Positions 1-22,512 are shown, counted from the first letter of the stretch. The stretch is 22,512 bases of DNA from a virus (IMGVR_UViG_3300017978_000297:1-22512); one strand, 5' to 3'. Notes: generated from the sequence alone by a model not told the origin. Made by a program: numbers and translations.

Positions 1-46
1 ACTTGATTTTTGTTTTATAATATCCTGTTTCTACTCGTTCTAATGC
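1..46. repeat. Terminal direct repeat, copy 1 (identical to 22467..22512); circular-closure overlap or short terminal redundancy
   Basis: acttgatttttgttttataatatcctgtttctactcgttctaatgc is present 46/46 nt at both ends of the window. Confidence 0.95.
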
Positions 47-283: not shown

Positions 284-742
284 TTATTTTAAATTAGGAA
301 TTGCATTTAGGTATGCTTGATGCGCTTTTTCTGGTGTATTGTATGAACCTAAAAATCTTCGTTTACCATCAACATAAATTCTTGCGTGATATTTAGTGTT
401 GGTTGCTTTGTATACACCTGTAGGTAAATCTCTGATTTTATCTTTACTTGCATTTAATCTGTTAGTAATAATTTGCAAATTATCTAATCTATTATCTAAT
501 CTATCAGCATTAATGTGATCTACCACTAATCTATGCCCATCTGGTACGTGATCTAAATAGGTTATAGCCATTAATTGATGAATTCTAAATACTTTACATA
601 CACCATCGTTACACAAATTAACACGTAAATAATTAGTGTTTAAATATGCACGTAGCATTAGTCCTGTTTTTAGATTTTTTACTTCTCCGTTTGTTGATAT
701 ACCATAATTTTTGTAACCTGGTATTTGTTTAAAGTTTTCCAT
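284..742 (-). CDS. Free-standing HNH homing endonuclease with N-terminal NUMOD4-like motif and C-terminal AP2 DNA-binding domain
   Basis: IPGYKNYGISTNGEV is NUMOD4-like. VVDHINADRLDNRLDNLQIITNRLN is an HNH_3-type H-N-N core. TGVYKATNTKYHARIYVDGKRRFLGSYNTPEKAHQAY is an AP2-type strand-strand-strand-helix motif. Confidence 0.85.
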   Translation of the reverse strand: MENFKQIPGYKNYGISTNGEVKNLKTGLMLRAYLNTNYLRVNLCNDGVCKVFRIHQLMAITYLDHVPDGHRLVVDHINADRLDNRLDNLQIITNRLNASKDKIRDLPTGVYKATNTKYHARIYVDGKRRFLGSYNTPEKAHQAYLNAIPNLK

Positions 743-1258: not shown

Positions 1259-2506
1259 TTATGATTTAAATCCAACATATATAAATGTCGTGTTGAGTGA
1301 GTATGCAGCCCATGTTGCAGAACTAATAGTACTTGGTAATACTGTTTGACCGCCAACATTACTTTGTACTGACATAGCTCTACTCATTGTAGAACTATCT
1401 AATGCAGCATGGTATACAACTGATGACGAGTTAGTAGGTCCAAATACACCAACACCACTAGCACCACCTACTTGTAATATACCAATATAATACATATTTG
1501 TTGGTGAAGTTGGAATTGTAAAGTTAACATTTGTGATTGTTTTTCTACCAGTAGTAGATGAATCAACTGAACCAAATGTAGTTACTAATGTATCTGGATA
1601 AAAGTTACCACTTGCATCTGTTGTACATGTGTATAATCCTAAAGTAATAGTTGAACCAGCTTGTGCAGTAGCAGAAACTAATATTGCAACATCTTTAATT
1701 ATTTCACCTGCAGATAAACTTTGAACTAATACGTATCGAGGTGTTCCAACAGTCAATGTTTGTGTTGAACCAGAGAAAGTTAATGCAGGTGTATTTAATT
1801 TATAAAATGGAAATCCACCCATATTAGATGGAGATTTAATACTATTAAACATGTTTGCACTTCCACCACCGCCAGATGTACCAGATGATCCGCTTGTTCC
1901 AGCAGTTCCATCTATACCGCTTGTGCCATCAACACCAGATGTTCCGTCTTGACCAATTCCGCTTGTTCCGCTTGTACCGTTCTGACCATCTTGACCAGAA
2001 GTTCCACTTGTTCCATCTATACCAGATGTTCCAGTAATACCAGATGATCCGCTTGTTCCTGACGTACCAGGTGTACCAGGTTGTGAGATACCAGAAGTTC
2101 CACTTGTTCCATTAGTACCATTAGCACCGTTTAAACCAGAAGTTCCAGATGAGCCTGTTTGACCGCTAGTTCCACTTGTACCAGCAGATCCTTTTGTACC
2201 AGAAGTTCCAGACGTACCAGAAATACCAGCAGATCCAGAAACACCGCTTGTTCCAGATGAGCCATCAACTCCACTAGTTCCGCTTGTACCAGAAAGACCA
2301 CCTGCACCAATTATAGTGGCTGATGAAAAATCTTGCTCACCATACCATTTGATGGCTGCATCAGCACCACCTCTAACTTGCATAGGTAAATTATGACCTT
2401 CGCCGTCTTGTAAATTTTTAAAGGTTGAATCTAAAGCATTTTCATCTTCAGTTTTGATCATACCTTTGTATGTGTCCTTTAATTTTTTGTTGTGTAAACT
2501 ACCCAT
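1259..2506 (-). CDS. Collagen-like tail fibre / receptor-binding protein
   Basis: About 150 aa of Gly-X-Y triplets (GTSGTSGVDGSSGTSG...) are flanked by a globular N-terminus and a beta-rich, Ser/Thr/Gly-rich C-terminal domain of about 200 aa. It is the last large gene of the structural block. Confidence 0.8.
   Translation of the reverse strand: MGSLHNKKLKDTYKGMIKTEDENALDSTFKNLQDGEGHNLPMQVRGGADAAIKWYGEQDFSSATIIGAGGLSGTSGTSGVDGSSGTSGVSGSAGISGTSGTSGTKGSAGTSGTSGQTGSSGTSGLNGANGTNGTSGTSGISQPGTPGTSGTSGSSGITGTSGIDGTSGTSGQDGQNGTSGTSGIGQDGTSGVDGTSGIDGTAGTSGSSGTSGGGGSANMFNSIKSPSNMGGFPFYKLNTPALTFSGSTQTLTVGTPRYVLVQSLSAGEIIKDVAILVSATAQAGSTITLGLYTCTTDASGNFYPDTLVTTFGSVDSSTTGRKTITNVNFTIPTSPTNMYYIGILQVGGASGVGVFGPTNSSSVVYHAALDSSTMSRAMSVQSNVGGQTVLPSTISSATWAAYSLNTTFIYVGFKS
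1859..2308 (-). repeat. Collagen-like Gly-X-Y triplet-repeat region inside the fibre gene (aa 67-216)
   Basis: The 9-nt periodic low-complexity run (ggtacnagygga-type) is visible on the plus strand as accagaagttccacttgt-type repeats. The Gly register shifts at GIS-QPG (aa 139-144) and at GIG-QDG (aa 183-188). Confidence 0.85.
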
Positions 2507-7192: not shown

Positions 7193-8422
7193 TTAATGCA
7201 ATTCAATAAACATACCTTCTACACTTAGTCCTTTGAGCTCTCCTCTTTTGATTTTTTGCCAAGTTTGTTCATCATTGATACGATAGCTGAGCATCCACGT
7301 CCCAATAGGAAGATTAAAGCCATATTTAGCAGATTTATCAAATTTAGTGTCTTCGATAATCCAAGATTCAAGTAAAGTATTATCAGCCACGACAGCGCCA
7401 TTATGATTAACGTCAGTATTGTTCTGATATGACTTTTTGAAAAAGCGTTCAGCAATTTCTCTAATAGTTTTTTTACTAAAGTAGACATAATATAACTCAC
7501 CAGTTTCTTCATCTTTTCTTAATATAAATTTATTTGGTATCATAGCTGGTGCGATAATGATACGTTCATCTTCGTTTTCAACTGCAAAACTAGTGTGAGT
7601 AAATCTTGCATTGTCAGGTACTGCACCGTTAGGTGATGGAGCCATAGTATTGTTACTCAAACCTGCTGCACCATTTGCTGGCCCTTTATTAATATAAATT
7701 TCTTGACCATCTTGTTGTGTAATTACTTGGATTTCATTCCAATAATGGCGACAATTTACGCCTGATTTCCAATCTAATAAAGGATTTGCATCTGCTCCAT
7801 GTGCTTCAGATCTTTCACCTGTTGAAATATATTCACTCATGTTTATACTTGCCATATTACGTAATTCATCGCGCGTATAGAGTCTGTTTAGTCTCAACAT
7901 AGCTTTACAGAAGTTTCTTTCAGCTGATGGTCCAGCATATTGGTATTTAGTTACACTAGATCTGTTTTCACCAGCTAATGCATCTAAACCAGCTAATCCT
8001 TTTAAATAATCACCTAATGTAGCGAATTCTGTTTTACCTAATTCTAACCAGTGTGCTGCTGGATTTACATCTTCGCCTAATTCAGCTGCCATTTTTAGAA
8101 TGCCTTCTTCTTGTTCTTCACTTAATATGTGGTGTGAGCATTTATGTGAGCTCATTTGTTCTTCTTGCCAAGTTGCATAACAAATAGCTGCAGCTTGATC
8201 TTGTTCATAACCTTCATTGATTAATTCAGGAATACAACGTCCAATATACTCTTCTTCTGTTTCACCAGTGTTTACGTCTACAAAAGATTCTTTTTTAAAT
8301 GCAAAGAAGTCTACTTCAATAGCTGGTGAATCTACAATCGATACAACAGATACTCCAGCGTCTTCTGTATTAATTTGTTCGTGGTTGATAACTAATTCAA
8401 CGATTTTTTTGATAGGTCTCAT
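7193..8422 (-). CDS. XkdF-type (Peptidase_S78_2-like) prohead protease with a large inserted segment carrying MuF/SPP1-gp7-like head-morphogenesis motifs
   Basis: The N-terminal strand is VSVVSIVDSPAIEVDFFAFKK. The C-terminal part, IIIAPAMIPNKFILRKDEETGELYYVYFSKKTIREIAERFFK...NHNGAVV...ESWIIED...GTWMLSYRINDEQTWQKIKRGELKGLSVEG, follows the B. subtilis XkdF pattern. The insert (aa 45-283) contains CIPELINEGYEQDQAAAICYATW and AERNFCKAM...LYTRDEL...GVNCRHYW. Confidence 0.7.
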   Translation of the reverse strand: MRPIKKIVELVINHEQINTEDAGVSVVSIVDSPAIEVDFFAFKKESFVDVNTGETEEEYIGRCIPELINEGYEQDQAAAICYATWQEEQMSSHKCSHHILSEEQEEGILKMAAELGEDVNPAAHWLELGKTEFATLGDYLKGLAGLDALAGENRSSVTKYQYAGPSAERNFCKAMLRLNRLYTRDELRNMASINMSEYISTGERSEAHGADANPLLDWKSGVNCRHYWNEIQVITQQDGQEIYINKGPANGAAGLSNNTMAPSPNGAVPDNARFTHTSFAVENEDERIIIAPAMIPNKFILRKDEETGELYYVYFSKKTIREIAERFFKKSYQNNTDVNHNGAVVADNTLLESWIIEDTKFDKSAKYGFNLPIGTWMLSYRINDEQTWQKIKRGELKGLSVEGMFIELH

Positions 8423-8430
8423 ATATTTAA

Positions 8431-10497
8431 TTATAATTTTGCTAATCTGTTAATTTTAGCTGTTGCTTCTTGGCTTGATGTCATATCATCTGATACAACG
8501 TATGTTTTGATAGGCACATTTACTGAAGATTCTACAGCTGATTGTAATTCTGCAATCGATGGTACTAAACCACCATCTGCAAATTTAGGTCTTGCTACAG
8601 AATTTAACGACATAGCCATTTGTGCTACGCCTGGTTGAGCCATAGCATATTTATTAATAATAAATTCACCGCCTTCAGCCTCAATAGGTACTCCACCGCT
8701 CGAGTGTGAATTACCAACGATTAAACCACCTGTTGCAGCTTTTGGTGTTTCAACTTTTACAATGTCTCTTACTTGTTTTAAACCTGCAGCAATTTGCACA
8801 CCTGCCATAACTGGTTTTAACCAAGTTGGTATAATAGTTGGATCCTTCATAACTTGCGAAGCACCTAAATATGTGTTAATAGTCGCTTGCGCAATCGCAG
8901 CTGATTTTCCTGCTGCTGTTTCTTTACCTAAAAGTTCTGAAACTGAACCAAATAAACCAGCTGAGATAGCTAAAGATCTTTGAGCTGAAGCTTCTTTATT
9001 TTTAACACGTAAATCATCATAGAATGCTTCGATTCTTGCTCTTTCTTCTTCAGTACCTTTTAATTTATCTAATTCTGCTAATGCTTTTGTTTCTTCTTCG
9101 TCTAAACGAACAGCTTCAGCTTCAAAAACTGTTTGATCTTTGGCTATTTTATACTCTTCTAATAAAAGATCTTTGGCTTGTTGATTAGTTAAAGCTTGTT
9201 CTTTACGTTTATTAGCATAAAAACCTTCAATTACATCTACTGATTTTTCATATTCTTCTGCAGTCATTAATTTTTCATCAAGACGTGCTTTTGCAGCAGC
9301 CATTGCATCTGCTTCTTCTTTATCAGTAATAGCTTTGGTATCAGCATACGTTTTCTCAGTCATTTGGATTTTATAACCAAGTAACCATTCTTCTTGTGCT
9401 TTTACTCTGTCTTTTTCTTTTTGATTTTCTTCTTCTGCTTTTAAATTCTTTTCTTGAGTAGCTTTATCGACTGCTTGCTTTTCTAAAACAGCGTATGCAG
9501 AGTTCAATTGCTTGATTTGTTCAGCAGTTGCACCTTTTTCTTTTAACATCTTTAGATCAGCCTCTTTCTGAGCTAATACCGTGCGTCTGGCGATCTCGAT
9601 AGTGTCAGTTAATTGTTTATCTTGCAGATCCTTTAATTTATCAGCCACAGCTTCTGCATTCTCTCTACGTTTGTTTTCAGCCGCTATAGCTTTTTCGCTG
9701 GCTTCTTTACGTTTAGCAGATAACTCATCTTGCTTTTTCTTTTCAGCTTCTGCTCTTTCTTTAGATTTTTCTGCAGCTGCTTGTTGTACTTCATCAATAT
9801 TAAAAGTAGCTTCTTTGATTTTCTTTTCAGATATACCTAAAGCAGCAACCATATCACCGAAACCTTCAGCGACAAATTCAAGCACATCAGCAAAGGCATT
9901 AAAAATAGGTAGAGCTACTTTTTCTACTAAAGCTAAAATAGGGCCTATGATTTTTGAAAAGGCACTACTGATTTTATTTAATGTTGCTTGACCTTCAGCT
10001 GTTGAGCCTAAAGCCTTTTTCATTAACATAAATGCACCAACGATACCTGCAATAACTGCAAGTATTGGATTAGCCATAAAGATTTTAAAGACACCATCTA
10101 AACCTTTCATTGCATTACCAGCTGCACCAGCAGGACCTGGCAATGAGGCTAATTGATCATCAAACTGACTAGATTGAAATTTAGTCTTTTCTAAACTTTC
10201 TTCGAGATCATCTAATTGACCACGAAGTGCTTTAAACTTTACTTTATCACCTGCTGCAGCAGCTTGTTGTAATTCTACTTGAGTTTTACGAATCTGTGTT
10301 TGTAATTTAGTAAAACTATCACCAGTTTCATCATTCTGTTTGGCTTGCTTTTTACTCGAATCACTAGATTTTTTTTGGGCTTTCTGTACTTCTTCATTTT
10401 CTTGTACCAAACCACCCATGGCTTTTTGTAAATCTTCAACAGATTTTACTTCTTGATCTATACCATCTATTTTAAAGCTAATGTTAACTACCGCCAT
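8431..10497 (-). CDS. Tape-measure-like protein (coiled-coil with internal hydrophobic segments); alternatively an internal or ejection protein
   Basis: 688 aa with long Lys/Glu/Ala coiled-coil stretches. Hydrophobic blocks are ANPILAVIAGIVGAFMLM and IIGPILALVEKVALPIF. The C-terminus carries a Gly-rich motif, GGLIVGNSHSSGGVPIEAEGGEFIINKYA ... FADGGLV. Confidence 0.6.
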   Translation of the reverse strand: MAVVNISFKIDGIDQEVKSVEDLQKAMGGLVQENEEVQKAQKKSSDSSKKQAKQNDETGDSFTKLQTQIRKTQVELQQAAAAGDKVKFKALRGQLDDLEESLEKTKFQSSQFDDQLASLPGPAGAAGNAMKGLDGVFKIFMANPILAVIAGIVGAFMLMKKALGSTAEGQATLNKISSAFSKIIGPILALVEKVALPIFNAFADVLEFVAEGFGDMVAALGISEKKIKEATFNIDEVQQAAAEKSKERAEAEKKKQDELSAKRKEASEKAIAAENKRRENAEAVADKLKDLQDKQLTDTIEIARRTVLAQKEADLKMLKEKGATAEQIKQLNSAYAVLEKQAVDKATQEKNLKAEEENQKEKDRVKAQEEWLLGYKIQMTEKTYADTKAITDKEEADAMAAAKARLDEKLMTAEEYEKSVDVIEGFYANKRKEQALTNQQAKDLLLEEYKIAKDQTVFEAEAVRLDEEETKALAELDKLKGTEEERARIEAFYDDLRVKNKEASAQRSLAISAGLFGSVSELLGKETAAGKSAAIAQATINTYLGASQVMKDPTIIPTWLKPVMAGVQIAAGLKQVRDIVKVETPKAATGGLIVGNSHSSGGVPIEAEGGEFIINKYAMAQPGVAQMAMSLNSVARPKFADGGLVPSIAELQSAVESSVNVPIKTYVVSDDMTSSQEATAKINRLAKL

Positions 10498-10529
10498 ATT
10501 ATAATTGTGTTTTCTATTTAGAAATATAA

Positions 10530-10556
10530 AAGAGTGGGCTTTTGAAACCCACTCTT
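10530..10556 (-). terminator. Rho-independent terminator between the 1068-aa tail gene and the tape-measure-like gene
   Basis: A perfect 9-bp stem pairs aagagtggg (10530..10538) with cccactctt (10548..10556), with a 9-nt loop. In minus-strand sense it is followed by TTTTATATTT. Confidence 0.7.
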
Positions 10557-10566
10557 GTTTAATTTT

Positions 10567-13500
10567 TTAGCAAGTAGGTCCCCATATAACTCTATGTTCA
10601 CCTCCAAATGCTGTTAATGTTCCGTATACTACGCCTGGACAACTAATCATTGTATCAAAACCAGGATCTAAAAGAATAAAGTTATAGGTACCGTCACAAT
10701 TTTGATATTGTACTTCTACTTGGAATTCAGATTCGTTGATAACGCTAACTTCTCTACAATCACCTATTGGTATTGGGTCGCATATACCATTAGCATTTGC
10801 ATAGTTTTGTCCATCGTTATTAAAGTTTGCATCAGCTATAGCCTCTGCATCTGCTTGTGAAATAGTTGATGTGTATGTGTTACTATACGATACTGAAGTG
10901 CCAGTATAACCAGGTGCACAATCATTTTTAGTAAATGTACCAGATCTCGGTGCTGAATACGTTGTAGGTGGTGTAACTGTACATGTACCGTTGATATTTG
11001 CATAGTTTTGACCATCTGTATTAAAGTTTGCATCAGCTATAGCATTTGCATCTGCTTGTGAAATCATAGATGTGTATGTATGCTCATAAAATACTGAAGA
11101 ACCTATGTAACCAGGATCACAATTATTTCTTGTAAAATTACCAGATCTATATGCTGAATATGAAGTACAAACTGCATTAATAACTTGATATGCTGTACAA
11201 CCAGCTGCATCAGTTACAGTTAAAGAGTATGCTGCGTCTGGCACACCTGTTAAATTTGGTGTAGTTGCTCCATTAGACCATAAATAGGTAAAAGGTGCAG
11301 TACCACCAGATAAAAGAGATGTGATATCGTTTGAATTTGAACCACTACAACCAGCAGATAAATTCAATTGCATTTCTGGTGAATTTGTAATTGACCAAGC
11401 TTGAGATGCAGTTCTACCAGCAGCATCAGTGACTACCACTACATATAAACCAGCAGCAACGTTAGTTATACTAGGTCCAGTTAGAGATGGTTGGTTAACT
11501 CCATCTTTTGTCCATGCGTATGTGTATGGTGAAGTACCTCCTATTGCAGAGATTTCTATATTACCACTAGCACTACCAGCACATGATACTAAATCTGTAG
11601 AAACTGTAATAATTTCTAAAGGAGCAATTGGTGAGAAGTTTAATAATTTAATCAAATCAACTTTAACAGATGCTAATTCACCAATTGGTGCATCATAGAT
11701 TTTTTGTATACGCCAGTATGCATTTTCAACCCAAATAACATCATCAAAAGTGATAGCTGCTAAATCTGTTACATCTAACATAAAATATGCTGTTAGTTTT
11801 CTAGCATTTGGATCATATAAACTATCAATGTAATCCTTCCAATATTTTTCATATACTGAACTACCTAATAAACCATTATAACCAGTGATTGTTTCGCCAT
11901 AATATGGCGCTTCAATTTCCCAGTTTAGGTTTACATCATCAGCAAGCGGTGGCCAATTTTCATGATATGATACAATTGGTGAAACATCGATTTGTTGATT
12001 AGTTTCTAAATGCCATGACACTAGTGATGTGATTAAACCATTATAAAATAATAAACGTGGTTCAACTTCAATAGGAATATGTCTTGTAACATTATCTTTT
12101 GTTTCTTCTTTATGTAAATGTGCTATGATCCAATTATTTGCTGGATCTCCACCTTCTATTTGTTTGATTGGTGTTGAAGCAAAAGGAGATATGTTAGCTC
12201 TTTCACCATCTATTAATTCATTTTGTGAATCATAAATAAAACGACCAAATGTTTCACCAAACGTATCTTTATTTTCTGTGCTCAACACGTCTTTACCTTC
12301 AATATCTGAAAATGTAATAGTTGAAGACTGTGAATAAAAAACTGGTTCGATTGCAATGTCTTTTGTGTAATCTAATTTTGAATTCCAATCAAAAAGATCA
12401 CCTTGACCAATATAAAGATACCATGGTTCAATAGTAAATTGATTAGGTTTTATTAAATCTGGTACCATTACTAATCTAAAACGATTTAGAATAGCTTTGA
12501 TAAAATCAATTTGTTTGATTTTAGAAGACAAAAGATCTGCAACAGTTTCACCACCAGGAGCTTGTGTACAGAAAAACTGACCATTGTATGTTGTGAAATC
12601 TGGTTTTATAGTACCAGCAGCTTCGATAGAACCTCTAATATCGATTTGATCACCTGTTATTAACTGTACAGAAGTTGGTAATGAAATTGAAAGGTTTTGA
12701 TAAACATATTGACTGTTTTGTGCAAAAGTAATTACAGATGTTTGCGCAATCTGCACATTATTTTTAAAAATGTATAATTTACATGTGAAATTACCAGCAG
12801 GACCGTTGTTGGTAAAATTAAAAGTACCACTAGAACTAAAATTATAAAATCCGTTTTGAGGTGCTGTGTATTTTCCATTTTGAGGGTTGTATACGTTATT
12901 AAAATCATTTACTTCAACATCAAATTCAATAATCTCTGGTATACCTTGATTAGATACGAAAGTATTTAATGAAGTGTATGCACTCATAGTATTACCAGCA
13001 CCAACCACTTTAAGTGGAGATGCTTCATTACCAAAAGCTGACAAATAGATTTTTTTAAAAAAAGCAGAGTTTAAAAAATTAGATTGATATGTATAACCAG
13101 TTTGATTAAAAATGGCATCAAAAACAGATTTAACTCTAATCATTGGTCTCAATTGAAAAACTGATAATGGATGTGAGCCTTGTGTAAAATTTTTAGGACC
13201 ATTTAATCTAACCATAGATTGCAATGGGTTTCCGCTATTATCATACGCTACACCAAAATCTATTAAAGGATAAACGATATCACCGTTGAATATACCTGCA
13301 TTTGGATCTAATGGATCAGCATCCCATGAATCAATAATAAGTTGTCTAGATTGCAAGTGTTCATATTGTGATAAATCTAAATTACTCAAATAACCTTGAC
13401 CAACTGCTGATGCAAAGTCTCTAACTTCACCCATAAAAAGAGTTTCATAATCTACTTTGCCAATAGTTTTATCAACTATAACACGTTGTAGTCTAATCTG

Positions 13501-13773
13501 ACCATCTTTAAAGAAAGTCTGATCAACAAACAATTCTGCTTTGATTTTTTTAGTCACATCAAAGTCTATACCGTTGACATTAAACCACCATTTAAAAAAT
13601 GTGTCGTTTTTGTCTGTCGATGGCATTCTAAATGAACGTGAAAAAGCAGATTCAATTTGACCTGCTTCGGTGATTGATTCTGCTGTTAATGTAATTTTTA
13701 TAGGATCTGTTTCATACAAATCAAGTTCAAACTTGATGTCTGTTTTAGGATCGTAAACAAATAGTTGGACCAT
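10567..13773 (-). CDS. Large tail / baseplate host-recognition protein with C-terminal SprB-type repeats, DUF5977-type repeats and a Cys-rich terminal domain
   Basis: 1068 aa. Residues 722-797 and 802-868 match the SprB-repeat pattern (CAGSASGNIEISAIGGTSPYTYAW...AGLYVVVVTDAAG; CSGSNSNDITSLLSGGTAPFTYLW...YSLTVTDAAGC). Residues 871-931 and 939-998 are two copies of FT(R/K)N(N/D)C.PGY.G(S/T)SV.Y...YTS.ISQADA.AIADANFN.DGQNYAN.NG.C. Residues 1006-1068 contain 4 further Cys. Confidence 0.75.
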   Translation of the reverse strand: MVQLFVYDPKTDIKFELDLYETDPIKITLTAESITEAGQIESAFSRSFRMPSTDKNDTFFKWWFNVNGIDFDVTKKIKAELFVDQTFFKDGQIRLQRVIVDKTIGKVDYETLFMGEVRDFASAVGQGYLSNLDLSQYEHLQSRQLIIDSWDADPLDPNAGIFNGDIVYPLIDFGVAYDNSGNPLQSMVRLNGPKNFTQGSHPLSVFQLRPMIRVKSVFDAIFNQTGYTYQSNFLNSAFFKKIYLSAFGNEASPLKVVGAGNTMSAYTSLNTFVSNQGIPEIIEFDVEVNDFNNVYNPQNGKYTAPQNGFYNFSSSGTFNFTNNGPAGNFTCKLYIFKNNVQIAQTSVITFAQNSQYVYQNLSISLPTSVQLITGDQIDIRGSIEAAGTIKPDFTTYNGQFFCTQAPGGETVADLLSSKIKQIDFIKAILNRFRLVMVPDLIKPNQFTIEPWYLYIGQGDLFDWNSKLDYTKDIAIEPVFYSQSSTITFSDIEGKDVLSTENKDTFGETFGRFIYDSQNELIDGERANISPFASTPIKQIEGGDPANNWIIAHLHKEETKDNVTRHIPIEVEPRLLFYNGLITSLVSWHLETNQQIDVSPIVSYHENWPPLADDVNLNWEIEAPYYGETITGYNGLLGSSVYEKYWKDYIDSLYDPNARKLTAYFMLDVTDLAAITFDDVIWVENAYWRIQKIYDAPIGELASVKVDLIKLLNFSPIAPLEIITVSTDLVSCAGSASGNIEISAIGGTSPYTYAWTKDGVNQPSLTGPSITNVAAGLYVVVVTDAAGRTASQAWSITNSPEMQLNLSAGCSGSNSNDITSLLSGGTAPFTYLWSNGATTPNLTGVPDAAYSLTVTDAAGCTAYQVINAVCTSYSAYRSGNFTRNNCDPGYIGSSVFYEHTYTSMISQADANAIADANFNTDGQNYANINGTCTVTPPTTYSAPRSGTFTKNDCAPGYTGTSVSYSNTYTSTISQADAEAIADANFNNDGQNYANANGICDPIPIGDCREVSVINESEFQVEVQYQNCDGTYNFILLDPGFDTMISCPGVVYGTLTAFGGEHRVIWGPTC
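10780..11163 (-). repeat. Intragenic tandem duplication with a period of about 201 nt (67 aa); two DUF5977-type modules
   Basis: Compare about 10795..10880 (atttgcatagttttgtccatcgttattaaagtttgcatcagctatagcctctgcatctgcttgtgaaat) with about 10993..11080 (atttgcatagttttgaccatctgtattaaagtttgcatcagctatagcatttgcatctgcttgtgaaat). Confidence 0.85.
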
Positions 13774-13774
13774 A

Positions 13775-15331
13775 TTATGAACGTTGTGTTTTATATTTAG
13801 CGTCAGCTAAAAATTCAAAATTGTATTGATATAATTTATCAGTAGCTCTACGTTTAGGCGTAACAGATTGTGTGGTTATAACACCTTTTATACTTGCCAG
13901 AGATAATTCATCGCCCGAAACACCAGGATAAACGTTATCAAATGGCATCTGTGTTAGTAAATAAGCTGCTGGTGAAGCAAAGGCTTGTCTAATAAACGTT
14001 TCACTATAGTCATTCATATAATCTGTTGAGCAACTAAAGGTGATTGTAGATTCTGTATCGTTAACATGATTACGCGTATCGAACCAACTACCTCCATCAC
14101 TTAGATTTTCATTACGCCACATAGATTTTTTATTTGAATATGTTACTTTAACATTTTTTAAATTTATAACATCCCAACCGCCAAGTGAATTCATGAATAT
14201 TAATTGACCTGGTTTTTCTCTTGATGATGGTAAATCATTATAATTCGAATCACATGTGTCAATAAAGTTAACTCTGTATGCTGCGATAGGTACTAAACCT
14301 GAAAATTCTGCAATCGATGCTGAATCATAACAGTTTAATTGATTACCAGACCATGGTCTATTACATGCTTGAGGATCTGCGTATGAGTGTGCTGTAATCC
14401 ATGCGTGTGTTGCATTTAATTCATTACCAAAACCATAGTATTGATAGCCCATTGAAAGTGCTGAATAATCTCCTGGAATATCAACATTACCAGGCAATGC
14501 ACTTGCAGTTGATGGTCCACACGATGTTTGAGGTCCCCAACCTAATTGTGTACTATTAGAAATCCAGTTTGTGCCTATTAATGTTGTATTATTATAATAT
14601 CTAACTTGAAATGAAAATAAACCATGTAATGGTATAGATCTGTTAGTATCAAAAGGAAATTGACCAGGTGAACTCCATTGTTGCACATACATTGGCACTA
14701 CAGAACCACCACGACGATATAAATCAACTTGTGGCACTTCAAAGCCAGCATCAGCTGCAAACCACATTGTTGGATCCATTGATTTTGTAATCCAGTTAGG
14801 TTGCCATGTTAAAAGTCCTGCATTGGTCCAGTTAGGCAAACAATCTACGCAATTAGGAGGCAATTGATTATTTGTATACCATGTTAAAATATCAAAAGGT
14901 CTATCTTCAGGAAATGCAAGTCCAGTCGAACCATTATATGCCATGTCACCTGTTGTACTAACTTCAGGATCTACTGTAGATTCGCCAATAACGCCTGAAA
15001 TATACAATTGAAATTCTGAAGCCCAACCTGTTAATCTGTGTTGAATGATATTGTTAAATGATTGAATGTTTCCGACAGTTTCATCTGTTTTAACATACGC
15101 TTTAATATATGGCGCCACATCAAAATAAAGTTTACCATCTGGGTTTGCTGGTTGTTGAATCTCAGCTACTTGCACATTGTTAACAACTACTCTAACTCGA
15201 TATTTATAACCAGATTGTAGTCCTGATGCGTTTTGTCTTTCTGCAACACATATTAATTTTGAATACGCAGCGGTCCATGGATCAAAATGCGTATAATTAT
15301 TAGGTTGTTTAAAAATTTGAATTGTTGCCAT
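13775..15331 (-). CDS. Tail / baseplate structural protein, function unknown
   Basis: A 518-aa Trp/Asn/Gly-rich ORF directly upstream of the 1068-aa tail protein with a 1-nt gap. The call rests on position only. Confidence 0.5.
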   Translation of the reverse strand: MATIQIFKQPNNYTHFDPWTAAYSKLICVAERQNASGLQSGYKYRVRVVVNNVQVAEIQQPANPDGKLYFDVAPYIKAYVKTDETVGNIQSFNNIIQHRLTGWASEFQLYISGVIGESTVDPEVSTTGDMAYNGSTGLAFPEDRPFDILTWYTNNQLPPNCVDCLPNWTNAGLLTWQPNWITKSMDPTMWFAADAGFEVPQVDLYRRGGSVVPMYVQQWSSPGQFPFDTNRSIPLHGLFSFQVRYYNNTTLIGTNWISNSTQLGWGPQTSCGPSTASALPGNVDIPGDYSALSMGYQYYGFGNELNATHAWITAHSYADPQACNRPWSGNQLNCYDSASIAEFSGLVPIAAYRVNFIDTCDSNYNDLPSSREKPGQLIFMNSLGGWDVINLKNVKVTYSNKKSMWRNENLSDGGSWFDTRNHVNDTESTITFSCSTDYMNDYSETFIRQAFASPAAYLLTQMPFDNVYPGVSGDELSLASIKGVITTQSVTPKRRATDKLYQYNFEFLADAKYKTQRS

Positions 15332-15333
15332 AT

Positions 15334-15753
15334 TTAATTTATATTATTTAGGTCTTGTTGTAATAATTGATCAAGTCTTTGAGCAACTTGATTTTGTAAT
15401 GTTTCGTAGTTAAAAAACGATTGAGCTGGTATACCAAAACGTCTGGTTTCAAATTTATATTCAGAACCAGATAATGGTTGAGGTTCAATACTTTCAGGTA
15501 CTGTTAAACCAAATGAGTCTTCAGTACCAGATACACCATAGTTTTGAAACATACCATAATAAAGCATTTGAATCTTTAATGTGTTGTTATCAACTACAGC
15601 TTGTAATGATCTTTTTAAATCTCCGCTGTCTTCTGGCGCTAAAGCTCGTATTTGAGCTACTAGTTCTCCACCAATCGTTAAAAGGTGAGCATCTAAATTA
15701 TTTAGTTGCTGACCAAAAGCATTAAGAGCTGATTCGAATTGTTCTACTGTCAT
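15334..15753 (-). CDS. HK97 gp10-like head-tail joining / tail-completion protein
   Basis: ELVAQIRALAPEDSGDLKRSLQAVVDNNTLKIQMLYYGMFQNYG follows the gp10-family signature (..aP..tG.Lr.si.....yy..f.e.G). Confidence 0.6.
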   Translation of the reverse strand: MTVEQFESALNAFGQQLNNLDAHLLTIGGELVAQIRALAPEDSGDLKRSLQAVVDNNTLKIQMLYYGMFQNYGVSGTEDSFGLTVPESIEPQPLSGSEYKFETRRFGIPAQSFFNYETLQNQVAQRLDQLLQQDLNNIN

Positions 15754-15755
15754 AA

Positions 15756-16241
15756 TTAATATGGTACGTCACACGCGTTTAATCCACCTGGAACTGTTAT
15801 ATCTAAAGTTACTGTTACACCTGCAACCCAATCATCAAATCTTTCTTTAAAGGGCGTAACGTTACCTATATTTGAAACAAACCAGTCTTTGTCTTCTGAA
15901 AAATACATTTGAGCTATCAAGTCTGTAGCATAGAGCTCACAATCTGATTGTACTCTTAAGTAATTAGCCATGCCATCAATTTGTGTTTCTTTGATAGCTA
16001 GTTGATCCATAACAATCATAGAAAATGAATAGACTTTCTGATTATTCTGAAGCTTGTGGGTTTGAGGCACTAAAAAAACGTATGGATAATCGACAGCATT
16101 AGTTATGTACTGGCCAGCAGTCTCGGTTGTGTTCTGGTTAATTCTAATATCTGAAGTATAGCCATACCCAAATTGAGCCAATTGTGGATGTTGCTCCACT
16201 AAAATTTTAATCTTGTTAATAGTATCAAAGTATGTCATCAT
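15756..16241 (-). CDS. Hypothetical neck / tail-module protein
   Basis: A 161-aa ORF overlapping its upstream neighbour by 4 nt (ATGA-type coupling). The call rests on position only. Confidence 0.45.
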   Translation of the reverse strand: MMTYFDTINKIKILVEQHPQLAQFGYGYTSDIRINQNTTETAGQYITNAVDYPYVFLVPQTHKLQNNQKVYSFSMIVMDQLAIKETQIDGMANYLRVQSDCELYATDLIAQMYFSEDKDWFVSNIGNVTPFKERFDDWVAGVTVTLDITVPGGLNACDVPY

Positions 16242-16918
16242 CTTGATTTTTGTTTTAATTTATCGTATTCTCTTTGTTTACGTTGGTTATCTTCTTTGCG
16301 CCATGACATAAAGTTAAGTGCATTTCTAAAAGGTTGTTCAGCTATCTGATCTAATTTTAGCATGTCTTCATGTGCTAAATGAATTAAAACCTGATACCAA
16401 ACTCTTCGAGGATCTGCAGTTGGTTGAACTTCTTCATCATCCTCATCATCTTCATAATCTGCATCTGGTTCTCCATCTGACAGCAAACCTGCATAGATAC
16501 GATATATTTGTTTGCGCCAATTCGAGATCTGACCTAAAGCTTTGAGTGCAGCTGGCATTGGTGTTTGTAAACCACCATTAGCAAACTTTTCTAAAATTAG
16601 GTGTAACGATTTATTGACTCCATCATACATCCAAATATCTAAATCGATCCAATCACCAAAAGTCATAGCATCTAAATTTATAACTTTCAAATCTTCTGAA
16701 TCTTCGTATTCTAAAGCATATCTAATAAAAGAAACGCCTAATTCAAGCGCTTCTTCTGGTGCATCAACTAATTCACGTTCATCGATTTGTAATGCAACTG
16801 CTAATATTTTAGGCCAATATGCTTTTTCATTCATATCAAACTTGGCTATTTTTTGCCATTGCCCCACAGTCATTGCTTTTAATTCGTATGGCGTATCGTT
16901 TAATATTACTTGAATCAT
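16238..16918 (-). CDS. Hypothetical protein with an acidic central tract; the resemblance to a tail-assembly chaperone is speculative
   Basis: A 226-aa ORF following TerL. It has the acidic run DGEPDADYEDDEDDEE and a basic C-terminus. Confidence 0.4.
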   Translation of the reverse strand: MIQVILNDTPYELKAMTVGQWQKIAKFDMNEKAYWPKILAVALQIDERELVDAPEEALELGVSFIRYALEYEDSEDLKVINLDAMTFGDWIDLDIWMYDGVNKSLHLILEKFANGGLQTPMPAALKALGQISNWRKQIYRIYAGLLSDGEPDADYEDDEDDEEVQPTADPRRVWYQVLIHLAHEDMLKLDQIAEQPFRNALNFMSWRKEDNQRKQREYDKLKQKSR

Positions 16919-16957
16919 CTATATTAAATATAAAAAGTTAGAGATATGAATTATGTA

Positions 16958-18184
16958 TTATAATTTTATACCACCTACAGTATATTGACCTCTTGTACGA
17001 TTTGTTTTTCTGTTTTGGTTACAAATAGCTAAACTCATAACAGTATCATCATGTTGACCATTTGGCGCCGAATAAACAATACTTCGAGATTTAGGTGAGT
17101 ATGTGTATGTGAAGATTTCAAGCTCAAATGTTAATGGCGCAAAAAGCTGTTTAGATGGTATTGTAATAGCTCTGTTATTAAAGTCTAAAGCTAGATTTTC
17201 AATAATATCTTGCTTGCTTCTATTTGATGTGATAAACGGTTGGGTTTTAGACCATCTCTTTTTTAAAGATTCATAGACAACATCACCTAATCCATTAACT
17301 TCGACTAATAGGGATGCATCGTGTTTTTGAACTACTTGCAAGACTGCATCAATCATATATGACCAATCTCGTAGATTTTCTCTATAGATCTCAAGTACTT
17401 TGCCTTTTTCATCCATAATGGTCAAAACTGTGTAGTCATTAGCTCGACCTAAATCTAGACCAGCGTATCTTTTACCTTCAGCTTTTGGCCATGCATTAAC
17501 TGAACATTCTTCAAGGTTTTGAAATACAGTTTGACCTGAGTCTGTAAATTCTGCAAGATACTCAGCTCTAAAGATGTGTTCTGGCAGGGTTAGTTTGGCT
17601 TCTTCAATTTCTTTAATATCAACAAATGGATTTGACTCGTACGTCATTTTTACACTAGCATACGATTCATTTTCAGGATTTTGACCTAATTGAAACAAGT
17701 CATAGAATAGGTTTTTACCTCGAGGTGTTGAAATAAAAAGCACTTGTTTACCTTTAACTAATAAAATAGGTTTAATGACAGCATTCCAAACTGAATCTGG
17801 CATATATGCAAACTCATCGAGTACTGCATAGTCACATGTTAAACCACGTAAGTTATCTGGTCTTTCAACAGATCTAAATAATATCTTTGAACCATTCATG
17901 AATTTGATTTCAAAGCCAGATCTATTAACAGACTTGATCACATTCGAACCTTGCAAACCATCTGAAATCTCTTCAAGTGGTCTTTTAACTTGTGAATACG
18001 TTGGCGCTGCACAAAGTATAGTTACTCCTGGATTATTTAAAGCCCAATAAAGCATAATAGATTGAGACAAGAATGATTTACCAGTTTGTCGACTACCACA
18101 AACCACAACATATTTCTTACCTGCTTGGATCAGATCTATTACAGCTGCTTGACCTTCATGAAGTTGTGGTCCTTCTATTAACAT
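16958..18184 (-). CDS. terL: Terminase large subunit
   Basis: Walker A is VVCGSRQTGKS. The Walker B-like motif is CDYAVLDEFAYM. The C-terminal RNaseH-like nuclease motif is AGLDLGRANDYTVLTIMDE ... LLVEVNGLGD ... GQHDD. Confidence 0.9.
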   Translation of the reverse strand: MLIEGPQLHEGQAAVIDLIQAGKKYVVVCGSRQTGKSFLSQSIMLYWALNNPGVTILCAAPTYSQVKRPLEEISDGLQGSNVIKSVNRSGFEIKFMNGSKILFRSVERPDNLRGLTCDYAVLDEFAYMPDSVWNAVIKPILLVKGKQVLFISTPRGKNLFYDLFQLGQNPENESYASVKMTYESNPFVDIKEIEEAKLTLPEHIFRAEYLAEFTDSGQTVFQNLEECSVNAWPKAEGKRYAGLDLGRANDYTVLTIMDEKGKVLEIYRENLRDWSYMIDAVLQVVQKHDASLLVEVNGLGDVVYESLKKRWSKTQPFITSNRSKQDIIENLALDFNNRAITIPSKQLFAPLTFELEIFTYTYSPKSRSIVYSAPNGQHDDTVMSLAICNQNRKTNRTRGQYTVGGIKL

Positions 18185-20986: not shown

Positions 20987-21352
20987 TTATTTATGTGTTT
21001 TAGACCAAGTTAAATTATCTACGTGATTGTTTTCTCTGTTACCGTCTATGTGTTTAACAAATCTGCAGTTATTTGGGTTTTCTAAAAAGTTTAGGGCTAC
21101 AAGACGATTAACGTATTCACCAGTTGGAATACCTAGCATTTTAGGAGATCCTGGTTTACCTTTCCAAAATTGGTTAACTTCTCTTTCACTAATCAAAGAC
21201 ATATCATCTCTGTAGTGTTTTAGGATTACTCTACCATGATCTGATATTAACCACTCTGATATCCCTACATATTCAGTCTTTGTGCCATTACTTTGTGGTA
21301 TTCTATAACCATAGGGTTTCTTTTTAAAGACTTTAAATTGTTCTGCTTTCAT
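20987..21352 (-). CDS. Free-standing HNH endonuclease
   Basis: VKHIDGNRENNHVDNLTWS is an HNH_3-type core. The upstream motif WLISDHGRV is NUMOD4-like. Confidence 0.75.
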   Translation of the reverse strand: MKAEQFKVFKKKPYGYRIPQSNGTKTEYVGISEWLISDHGRVILKHYRDDMSLISEREVNQFWKGKPGSPKMLGIPTGEYVNRLVALNFLENPNNCRFVKHIDGNRENNHVDNLTWSKTHK

Positions 21353-22466: not shown

Positions 22467-22512
22467 ACTTGATTTTTGTTTTATAATATCCTGTTTCTAC
22501 TCGTTCTAATGC
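22467..22512. repeat. Terminal direct repeat, copy 2 (identical to 1..46)
   Basis: 46/46 nt identity with the window start. It also duplicates the last 15 codons of the junction-spanning wHTH gene, whose TAA occupies 22465..22467. Confidence 0.95.

What the first reader, a model, noticed from the sequence alone, without database searches (positions are those of the whole stretch)
10570..11610. Tail protein C-terminus built from host-type cell-surface modules (2 x SprB-type, 2 x DUF5977-type, Cys-rich cap)
SprB repeats are characteristic of the gliding-motility adhesin and other surface proteins of Flavobacteriia. The FTKN.C.PGY.G..V.Y...YTS.ISQADA...A......GQ.YAN.NG.C module is likewise restricted to Bacteroidota, to my knowledge.

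Finding both as tandem pairs at the distal end of the largest tail protein suggests domain capture from the host, used as the receptor-binding tip.

It is also the strongest host clue in the window. The about 201-nt duplication is still recognisable at the DNA level, which indicates recent module shuffling.
Basis: partly seen in the sequence, partly recalled or inferred. Interest (0 to 1): 0.65.

Follow-up and report, generated by a model that had tools for sequence, protein, structure and literature searches.

The report
Modular tip of phage tail protein
The largest protein of this small phage is a tail-tip protein whose far end is built from small swappable modules also found in Bacteroidota surface proteins, a familiar way for phages to change what they bind, here using modules not yet described in phages.

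Summary
The 1068-aa ORF (10567-13773, minus strand) ends in two SprB-type Ig-like repeats, two DUF5977 repeats (80 and 82 bits, cutoff 25) and a 65-aa four-cysteine end module. The two DUF5977 copies form a 201-nt tandem repeat.

- The conserved first 714 aa form an unannotated phage protein family. Its predicted fold best matches the lambda gpJ tail tip, with a C1q-like domain inserted.
- More than 60 relatives keep this body but carry C-terminal tails of 3 to 497 aa.
- In one 79%-identical relative, DNA similarity stops exactly at the SprB/DUF5977 boundary and resumes at the stop codon. That is a clean cassette swap.
- DUF5977 is almost exclusively a Bacteroidota surface-protein module. The best cellular matches are Flavobacterium, at only 60-64% identity.
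- The closest units are a short-loop subtype in small metagenomic proteins, one on a phage contig. Recent capture from the present host is therefore not shown.
- The SprB pair is old in this phage family and also resembles Ig domains of T5-like coliphages, so it is a weak host clue.
- The duplication predates the split of three related phages.
- The end module is an uncatalogued family with 140 representative clusters.

Receptor binding by the tip is inferred, not shown.

The parts
10567..13773 (-). Whole gene: 1068-aa tail-tip-type protein (including stop codon)
   Evidence: Largest ORF in the window. The AF2 model has mean pLDDT 78. The Foldseek top hits are lambda gpJ.
11632..13773 (-). Conserved body, aa 1-714
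   Evidence: More than 110 homologues of 670-1241 aa. No Pfam, PHROGs or NCBIfam family matches it. pLDDT is mostly 80-95. The body ends at the conserved anchor VKVDLIKL.
12559..12987 (-). C1q/TNF-like jelly-roll domain inserted in the body, aa about 263-405
   Evidence: The family profile hits cerebellin/C1q chains in the PDB at E 2.4e-15. Foldseek target-normalised TM is about 0.6 to C1q domains. It is the most divergent part of the body in every comparison.
11374..11610 (-). SprB-type Ig-like repeat 1, aa 722-800
   Evidence: Pfam SprB 35.1 bits, cutoff 28. Modelled as a beta-sandwich with pLDDT 80-93. PHROGs 'Hoc-like' hits cover only this region.
11164..11373 (-). SprB-type Ig-like repeat 2, aa 801-870
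   Evidence: Pfam SprB 26.8 bits when scanned alone. Modelled as a beta-sandwich. DNA similarity to relative L003 ends at 11174, the 3' edge of this repeat.
10963..11163 (-). DUF5977 repeat 1, aa 871-937
   Evidence: Pfam DUF5977 80.2 bits. First unit of the 201-nt tandem repeat.
10765..10962 (-). DUF5977 repeat 2, aa 938-1003
   Evidence: Pfam DUF5977 81.9 bits. The AF2 model with a deep alignment has pLDDT above 90 and shows beta-hairpins plus one long helix.
10570..10764 (-). Terminal four-cysteine all-beta module (the four-Cys end module), aa 1004-1068
   Evidence: No Pfam hit. Four invariant Cys. Homologous modules end P0085 and P0087. 140 representative clusters in the exhaustive search. 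All-beta model with pLDDT about 74-93.
10795..11160 (.). 201-nt tandem duplication at DNA level
   Evidence: TRF score 527, 82% matches. dS between the two copies is 0.49.

Best explanation
Shown:
- The gene encodes a structural tail-tip-type protein of a small phage. The assembly is circular and about 22.5 kb, with 34% G+C, and is most likely from a phage of Bacteroidota.
- A conserved 714-aa body, with a gpJ-like fold and an inserted C1q-like jelly roll, is followed by a chain of small, independently folding modules.
- The chain is two Ig-like SprB-type repeats, two DUF5977 units (each with a conserved Cys pair), and a terminal four-Cys beta module.
- The part from the first DUF5977 to the stop codon behaves as an exchangeable cassette. 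It is replaced wholesale in a close relative.
- Its synonymous divergence from another relative is three to four times lower than that of the body.
- The modules belong to a pool shared between Bacteroidota phages and Bacteroidota surface proteins.

Inferred, by analogy with lambda gpJ and with fibrillar adhesins:
- The body anchors the protein in the tail tip, probably as a trimer.
- The Ig-like and DUF5977 units act as a stalk.
- The terminal four-Cys module, alone or with the adjacent DUF5977, contacts a host surface component. Cassette exchange would then retarget the phage.
For: Identity of modules.

Tail-tip assignment:
- Foldseek top hits are lambda gpJ chains 9e7m_Ja and 8k35_A, E 1.7e-11. 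Other hits are the phi812 central spike and an extracellular contractile injection system (eCIS) baseplate chain.
- Neighbouring genes are the large terminase, portal, an XkdF protease and a collagen-like fibre.

Variable tails on a constant body: tails of 3-497 aa in more than 12 types.

Cassette swap: window-L003 DNA similarity covers 11174-18141 and 8295-10573, with nothing in between. P0055 carries a different Cys-rich tail after the same two SprB repeats.

Recombination: dS against L001 is 0.70-1.29 in the body and 0.18-0.42 from SprB1 to the end module.

Fastest change among the closest relatives lies at the tip. Against P0054, DUF5977 repeat 2 is 86% and the end module 88% identical, versus 93-100% elsewhere.

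The four-Cys end module recurs and is usually terminal. There are 140 clusters, 1-4 copies per protein, many at the extreme C-terminus, 8 on the same body family, and only 2 with signal peptides.

DUF5977 plus an end-module-like domain also occur together in P0013/14/16, P0022/25, P0231 and P0256.

DUF5977 is classed as a stalk domain of fibrillar-adhesin-like proteins in PMC8286594.

Bacteroidota link. The G+C content of 33.8% is consistent with this.
Against: - No binding data exist, and no host is known.
- The gpJ resemblance is fold-level only. TM scores are low (0.11-0.13), there is no profile-level sequence similarity (hhalign probability 0.35%), and no gpJ Pfam domains are present.
- Gene order is atypical for a siphovirus. 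The weak tape-measure-like ORF lies downstream, not upstream.
- dN/dS is below 1 in every module, so there is no signal of diversifying selection at domain level.
- The C1q-like domain is the most divergent region at larger distances. A collagen-like fibre gene is also present. Either could be the main specificity determinant.
- The DUF5977 plus end-module model has no significant match to any solved structure (best E 0.23), so no binding function can be read from the fold.
Confidence: 0.6

Rival explanations
1. The SprB and DUF5977 modules were captured recently and directly from the present host's surface-protein genes, so they identify the donor or host lineage.
For: DUF5977 is nearly confined to Bacteroidota genomes, with Flavobacterium giving the best matches. 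The cellular carriers are secreted or surface proteins. The phage G+C content is 34%.
Against: The best cellular identity is only 60-64% over about 60 aa, and Chitinophaga reaches 60% too. The cellular units aligned have a 3-residue loop insertion that the window's units and their nearest relatives lack. One of those relatives is on a phage contig. The SprB pair is shared with relatives whose bodies are only 36-40% identical. The duplication and the full architecture are shared by three diverged phages.
Confidence: 0.12
2. The C-terminal chain is only a stalk or a weak accessory adhesin, like Ig-like domains on other virions. Host specificity would reside in the C1q-like domain of the body or in the separate collagen-like fibre (1259-2506).
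For: DUF5977 and Ig-like repeats are classed as stalk domains. The C1q-like domain is the most divergent segment against P0056, P0055 and more distant relatives. Relatives with a tail of only 3-33 aa exist, so the body can function without any C-terminal modules. The collagen-like fibre has tail-fibre PHROG hits, and its region is not conserved in L001.
Against: Against the closest relative, the changes concentrate in DUF5977 repeat 2 and the end module, not in the C1q-like domain, which is 98% identical. The cassette is exchanged as a unit. The four-Cys module is typically terminal, as receptor-binding knobs are.
Confidence: 0.25
3. The protein is a capsid decoration protein, as the only PHROGs hits ('Hoc-like head decoration') suggest.
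For: PHROGs families 2973, 3945 and 4069 match at E 1.5e-9 to 1e-3. tblastn hits fall on 'dec' or Hoc-like genes of T5-like phages.
Against: These hits cover only aa about 717-794, a single Ig-like repeat. The 714-aa body resembles tail-tip and baseplate proteins. A 1068-aa protein with a large globular body is unlike known decoration proteins (my own knowledge).
Confidence: 0.03

Closest known systems
Lambda gpJ (central tail fibre / host specificity protein; PDB 8k35, 9e7m)
   Same: It is the best fold match to the body. The overall logic is the same: a large N-terminal tail-tip body, then Ig/FN3-like domains, then a small C-terminal domain that in lambda binds the receptor LamB (the LamB role is my own knowledge).
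   Different: There is no detectable sequence or profile similarity and no gpJ Pfam domains. The TM score is low. The body carries an inserted C1q-like domain. Gene order differs. The distal modules are unrelated.
Ig-like domains displayed on phage virions (T4 Hoc, T5-like 'dec' proteins; Fraser et al. 2006, recalled from memory)
   Same: The SprB-type repeats match PHROGs Hoc-like families and T5-like dec genes at 33-39% identity. They are surface-exposed beta-sandwich spacers.
   Different: Here they sit in a tail-tip protein between the body and the distal cassette, not on the capsid.
DUF5977-bearing surface proteins of Bacteroidota (fibrillar-adhesin-like, RHS-repeat-associated)
   Same: Same Pfam family with the same conserved Cys pair and the SQADA / GQxYANxNGxC motifs. 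The units are arranged in tandem.
   Different: Cellular proteins carry 1-23 copies in proteins over 1100 aa or in lipoproteins, together with RHS repeats, fn3, beta-helix, PKD/Ig_7 or PPC domains. Their units have a 3-residue longer loop. The phage has two copies followed by the four-Cys end module.
SprB gliding-motility adhesin of Flavobacterium johnsoniae
   Same: The repeat type is the same (Pfam PF13573).
   Different: The phage has two repeats rather than the very many of SprB. No signal peptide is evident and no type IX secretion system (T9SS) C-terminal domain was found in the Pfam scan. It is not an SprB orthologue.
crAss-like phage csAssE-Sib 'carbohydrate-binding protein' (OR575929.1)
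   Same: tblastn matches aa 880-1019 (the DUF5977 pair) at 34% identity. This shows DUF5977 in another Bacteroidota-phage lineage.
   Different: The carrier protein and the phage are unrelated. I did not examine the architecture of that protein.

Membership tests
Pfam DUF5977 (PF19404) | HMM score above the curated cutoff (25 bits) | tested here: met
   80.2 and 81.9 bits for the two units. The whole-protein score is 141.5 bits, E 1.3e-41.
Pfam DUF5977 (PF19404) | Conserved Cys pair and the SQADA / GQxYANxNGxC motifs | tested here: met
   Invariant columns N13, C15, S35, Q36, Q52, A55, N56, N58, G59 and C61 in the 16-unit alignment.
   336 confirmed stretches in one genome per species. 75 of the 78 best loci are Bacteroidota. 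The three exceptions are MAGs (metagenome-assembled genomes) labelled Dadabacteria, Yersinia and Citrobacter, whose binning I could not check.
Pfam SprB repeat (PF13573) | HMM score above the curated cutoff (28 bits) | tested here: met
   Copy 1 scores 35.1 bits. Copy 2 scores 26.8 bits alone, just below the cutoff. The whole protein scores 35.3 bits with 2 stretches.
SprB-type gliding adhesin (protein-level membership) | Very long array of repeats and a T9SS C-terminal sorting domain | tested here: not met
   There are only two repeats. No T9SS C-terminal domain family appears in the Pfam scan at E up to 1.
Lambda gpJ-like central tail fibre | Fold similarity of the body to gpJ | tested here: inconclusive
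   Foldseek E 1.7e-11, probability 1.0, about 900 aligned columns. However, TM is 0.11-0.13 and identity 8%.
Lambda gpJ-like central tail fibre | Sequence or profile homology, or the gpJ Pfam domains | tested here: not met
   hhalign of the family profile against lambda J gives probability 0.35%. No such Pfam hit.
Lambda gpJ-like central tail fibre | C-terminal domain binds the host receptor | not testable with these tools
   Requires adsorption or binding experiments.
C1q/TNF-like domain | Jelly-roll domain recognisable by profile and by fold | tested here: met
   The family profile hits PDB C1q/cerebellin chains at E 2.4e-15. Foldseek target-normalised TM is about 0.6. The single-sequence Pfam C1q score is 17.5 bits, below the 23.7 cutoff.
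Hoc-like head decoration (PHROGs 2973/3945/4069) | Match over the protein rather than over one shared Ig-like domain | tested here: not met
   The matches cover only aa 717-794 of 1068.
Four-Cys end module (no named family) | About 62 aa with four invariant Cys spaced roughly 20, 19 and 23 residues apart; an all-beta module | tested here: met
   Alignments A3 and A6. jackhmmer links it to P0085 and P0087. 140 clusters at E up to 1e-3. No Pfam family covers it.

The most novel reading that the evidence does not exclude
DUF5977 plus the four-Cys end module may be a mobile cell-surface-recognition cassette used on both sides of the phage-host divide. Bacteroidota phages would place it on tail tips. 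Bacteroidota cells would place DUF5977 arrays on RHS-repeat-associated and other secreted proteins that must also engage neighbouring Bacteroidota cells. Phage and bacterial contact systems would then target the same surface structure with the same module.
Probability: 0.15. Interest if true: 0.65.

Novelty: new member of a known kind. Interest (0 to 1): 0.42.

Why it matters
Tail-tip proteins with exchangeable ends decide which bacteria a phage can infect. Almost nothing is known about receptor recognition in the abundant small phages of aquatic Bacteroidota.

This locus gives a defined, cleanly bounded cassette (aa 868-1068) and natural swap variants. It also gives two unannotated building blocks that could be tested directly for binding: the 714-aa body family and the four-Cys end module, which has 140 clusters.

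The work also shows that a 'host-type' domain in a phage is a phylum-level host clue at best. It is not evidence of recent capture.

Tried and rejected
- Megablast of the gene against GenBank phages found no match.
- NCBIfam gave nothing for this gene.
- A word-indexed homology search with the end-module alignment returned nothing at E up to 0.01. The exhaustive search was needed instead.
It was redone with units from search-returned proteins only.
- In the full-length model, DUF5977 and the end module had pLDDT 28-61 because the alignment was shallow there, so that part was not used.
- Foldseek of the confident DUF5977 plus end-module model against the PDB found no significant match (best E 0.23).
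- hhalign of the family profile against lambda J found no similarity.
- PHROGs scans of carriers of the end module and of short-loop DUF5977 proteins gave no informative hits.
- I tested whether the 686-aa ORF upstream of P0016 is a split-off 'body'. It is not homologous, so the viral origin of P0013, P0014 and P0016 stays unproven.
- There are no tRNA genes to use as host clues.
- The Hoc-like capsid-decoration reading was rejected because only one Ig-like repeat matches.
- DNA for the contigs of P0001 and P0010 was not available.

Full report
OBSERVATION

The window's largest ORF is 10567-13773 on the minus strand and encodes 1068 aa. The finding's coordinates 10570-11610 correspond to aa 722-1068.

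- SprB repeat PF13573 at aa 722-800 scores 35.1 bits (cutoff 28).
- A second SprB repeat at aa 801-870 scores 26.8 bits when scanned alone.
- DUF5977 PF19404 at aa 871-937 and 938-1003 scores 80.2 and 81.9 bits (cutoff 25).

The last 65 aa match no Pfam family. They contain four Cys that are invariant across related modules. I call this the four-Cys end module.

Tandem Repeats Finder reports the two DUF5977 copies as a 201-nt repeat at 10795-11160, with 82% matches and score 527.

WHAT THE CARRIER IS

The window is a closed circular assembly. Its first 46 nt equal its last 46 nt, giving a genome of about 22.47 kb. G+C is 33.8%. All ORFs of 139 aa or more are on the minus strand. They include the large terminase, portal, an XkdF-type protease, a collagen-like fibre and two HNH endonucleases. 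There is no near DNA match in GenBank phages.

The first 714 aa of the target match no Pfam, PHROGs or NCBIfam family. They do have more than 110 metagenomic homologues.

An AlphaFold2 model built with 69 family sequences is confident over the body and the SprB repeats, with pLDDT mostly 80-95. Foldseek against the PDB ranks lambda gpJ in the tail tip complex first (9e7m_Ja and 8k35_A, E about 2e-11). Next come many C1q-type domains, and further down the phi812 central spike and an extracellular contractile injection system (eCIS) baseplate chain. BFVD returns hundreds of uncharacterised proteins of uncultured phages.

The gpJ resemblance is structural only:
- TM scores are low (0.11-0.13).
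- hhalign of the family profile against lambda J finds nothing.

I therefore call the protein tail-tip-type, not a gpJ family member.

A C1q/TNF-like jelly roll is inserted at aa about 263-405. The family profile hits PDB C1q and cerebellin chains at E 2.4e-15, and Foldseek target-normalised TM is about 0.6.

The PHROGs 'Hoc-like head decoration' hits cover only one Ig-like repeat, aa 717-794. They do not make this a capsid protein.

MODULE SWAPPING

I anchored all relatives at the conserved end of the body (VKVDLIKL). Their C-terminal tails range from 3 to 497 aa and fall into a dozen or more unrelated types.
- P0054 (96% identical body) and P0056 (77%) have exactly the window's architecture.
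- P0055 (79%) has the two SprB repeats followed by a different Cys-rich tail.

At the DNA level, window-L003 similarity covers 11174-18141 and 8295-10573, with nothing in between. The replaced segment therefore runs from the SprB2/DUF5977 boundary to the stop codon. The unit 'DUF5977 x2 plus end module' behaves as one cassette.

Against L001 (P0056), synonymous divergence is 0.70-1.29 in the body but 0.18-0.42 from SprB1 to the end module. The distal part therefore shares a more recent ancestor than the body does, which is the signature of recombination.

Against the closest relative (P0054), differences concentrate in DUF5977 repeat 2 (86% identity) and the end module (88%), versus 93-100% elsewhere. 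dN/dS is below 1 everywhere.

THE DUPLICATION

Orthologous copies are closer than paralogous ones:
- Repeat 1 to repeat 1 is 87.6% nt identical, and repeat 2 to repeat 2 is 89.4%.
- The two copies within the window are 75.8% identical.

dS between the window's two copies is 0.49, against 0.20-0.41 between orthologous copies.

The duplication therefore predates the split of the three phages. It is 'recent' only relative to the deep divergence of the family. In L001 the two copies share an identical central stretch, which suggests gene conversion.

WHERE THE MODULES COME FROM

DUF5977. A scan of one genome per species found 336 confirmed stretches. 75 of the 78 best loci are Bacteroidota: Flavobacterium, Chitinophaga and Chitinophagaceae, Pedobacter, Niastella and Bacteroidales. 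The three exceptions are oddly labelled MAGs (metagenome-assembled genomes).

In cells DUF5977 occurs as 1-23 tandem copies. The carriers are proteins over 1100 aa or lipoproteins. They also carry RHS repeats, fn3, beta-helix, PKD/Ig_7 or PPC domains. One hit lies just upstream of a DUF6443-RHS-toxin gene. PMC8286594 lists DUF5977 as a stalk domain of fibrillar-adhesin-like proteins. So 'host-type cell-surface module, restricted to Bacteroidota' holds.

Identity to the best cellular units is only 60-64%. The cellular units aligned carry a 3-residue loop insertion that the window's units lack.

The nearest units (P0013/14/16, P0003, P0021/24, P0023) share the short loop.
- P0023 lies on a 50-kb phage contig beside a holin.
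- A crAss-like phage protein also matches.
- The context of P0013/14/16 could not be shown to be viral.

Direction and date of transfer therefore remain open. Recent capture from the present host is not supported.

SprB repeats. Many relatives with bodies only 36-40% identical have the same pair directly after the body. The repeats also match Ig-like domains of T5-like coliphages at 33-39% identity. They are an old feature of the family and a weak host clue.

The four-Cys end module. jackhmmer links it to the C-termini of P0085 and P0087. An exhaustive profile search of 1.84 billion representatives finds 140 clusters at E up to 1e-3.
- These proteins carry 1-4 copies, often at the extreme C-terminus.
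- No Pfam family covers the module.
- 8 of 137 carriers have the same body family, and only 2 have signal peptides.
- DUF5977 immediately followed by such a module recurs in P0013/14/16, P0022/25, P0231 and P0256.

STRUCTURE OF THE TIP

With a 72-row alignment, repeat 2 plus the end module models at pLDDT 90.5.
- DUF5977 is a pair of beta-hairpins followed by one long helix and a short strand.
- The end module is all-beta.

Foldseek finds no significant solved relative (best E 0.23). No function can be read from the fold.

MECHANISM

Shown: module identities, the constant body with variable tails, the cassette boundary, the recombination signal, and the Bacteroidota link.

Inferred: the body sits in the tail tip, the Ig-like and DUF5977 units form a stalk, and the terminal four-Cys module (perhaps with DUF5977) contacts the host surface. 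Cassette exchange would then retarget the phage. I give this about 0.6.

The main rival, at about 0.25, is that the chain is only a stalk or accessory adhesin. Specificity would then lie in the C1q-like domain or in the collagen-like fibre at 1259-2506.
- The C1q-like domain is the most divergent body segment at larger distances.
- Relatives with almost no C-terminal tail exist, which favours this rival.
- The concentration of changes at the tip among closest relatives, and the unit-wise exchange, favour the tip.

NOVELTY

Modular, recombining receptor-binding proteins carrying Ig-like and host-like domains are well known. This is a new member of that kind. The new elements are descriptive:
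- DUF5977 in phage tail proteins. Only one work in the library mentions the domain, held as a preprint and its published version, and not in a phage context.
- An unannotated four-Cys terminal module family.
- An unannotated body family with an inserted C1q-like domain.

Interest is moderate.

Noticed in passing
window 1-46 and 22467-22512: The first 46 nt are identical to the last 46 nt. The window is therefore a circularly closed assembly of a complete genome of about 22.47 kb, very small for a tailed phage. Related contigs are 22.7-24.1 kb.
   Followed up: partly
window 12559-12987 (-), aa about 263-405 of the target: A C1q/TNF-like jelly-roll domain is inserted in the conserved body. It is the most divergent body segment (59% identity against 80-82% for the rest versus P0056) and is a second candidate specificity determinant.
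   Followed up: partly
window 1259-2506 (-): A 415-aa collagen-repeat protein with tail-fibre PHROGs hits. DNA similarity to relative L001 stops near 2172, so part of this fibre gene is also variable between relatives.
   Followed up: no
window 8431-10497 (-): The 688-aa ORF directly downstream of the tail-tip gene has only weak tape-measure-like PHROGs hits (E 9e-7). Its position after, rather than before, the tip gene is unusual for a siphovirus layout.
   Followed up: no
window 7193-8422 (-): A 409-aa protein with a C-terminal XkdF-type serine protease domain. Its middle stretch (aa 157-246) matches the C-terminal part of a portal PHROG family, suggesting a fused or rearranged head-maturation gene. 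In L001 the homologue is 371 aa.
   Followed up: no
window 284-742 (-) and 20987-21352 (-); L003 2301-2720: There are two HNH endonuclease genes in the window. Relative L003 instead has a GIY-YIG endonuclease inserted just upstream of the terminase gene. This suggests mobile homing-endonuclease traffic in this phage group.
   Followed up: no
L001 11913-12295 (DUF5977 repeats of P0056): The two DUF5977 copies of L001 share an identical central stretch of about 60 nt and are 84.8% identical overall, against 75.8% in the window. This suggests gene conversion between the copies in that lineage. The window's repeat 2 is also closer to L001's (dS 0.20) than to that of the otherwise closest phage L086 (dS 0.41).
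   Followed up: partly
L014, L018, L066, L069 and other genome loci: Cellular DUF5977 arrays reach 14-23 tandem copies at the C-terminal part of very large proteins that carry weak RHS-repeat matches. One metagenomic DUF5977 protein (P0010) lies directly upstream of a DUF6443-RHS-Ntox23 toxin gene.
   Followed up: partly
proteins P0178, P0195, P0215, P0259, P0013/14/16: Several small proteins carrying the four-Cys end module begin with a similar N-terminal motif (roughly ITLT..G.NTGPF.LYSN.D). This may be a shared attachment domain for a family of small fibre-like proteins.
   Followed up: no
L024, L033, L064: Three MAG contigs labelled Candidatus Dadabacteria, Yersinia and Citrobacter freundii carry typical DUF5977 proteins of over 1100 aa. 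They are probably mis-binned Bacteroidota contigs, but I did not check this.
   Followed up: no
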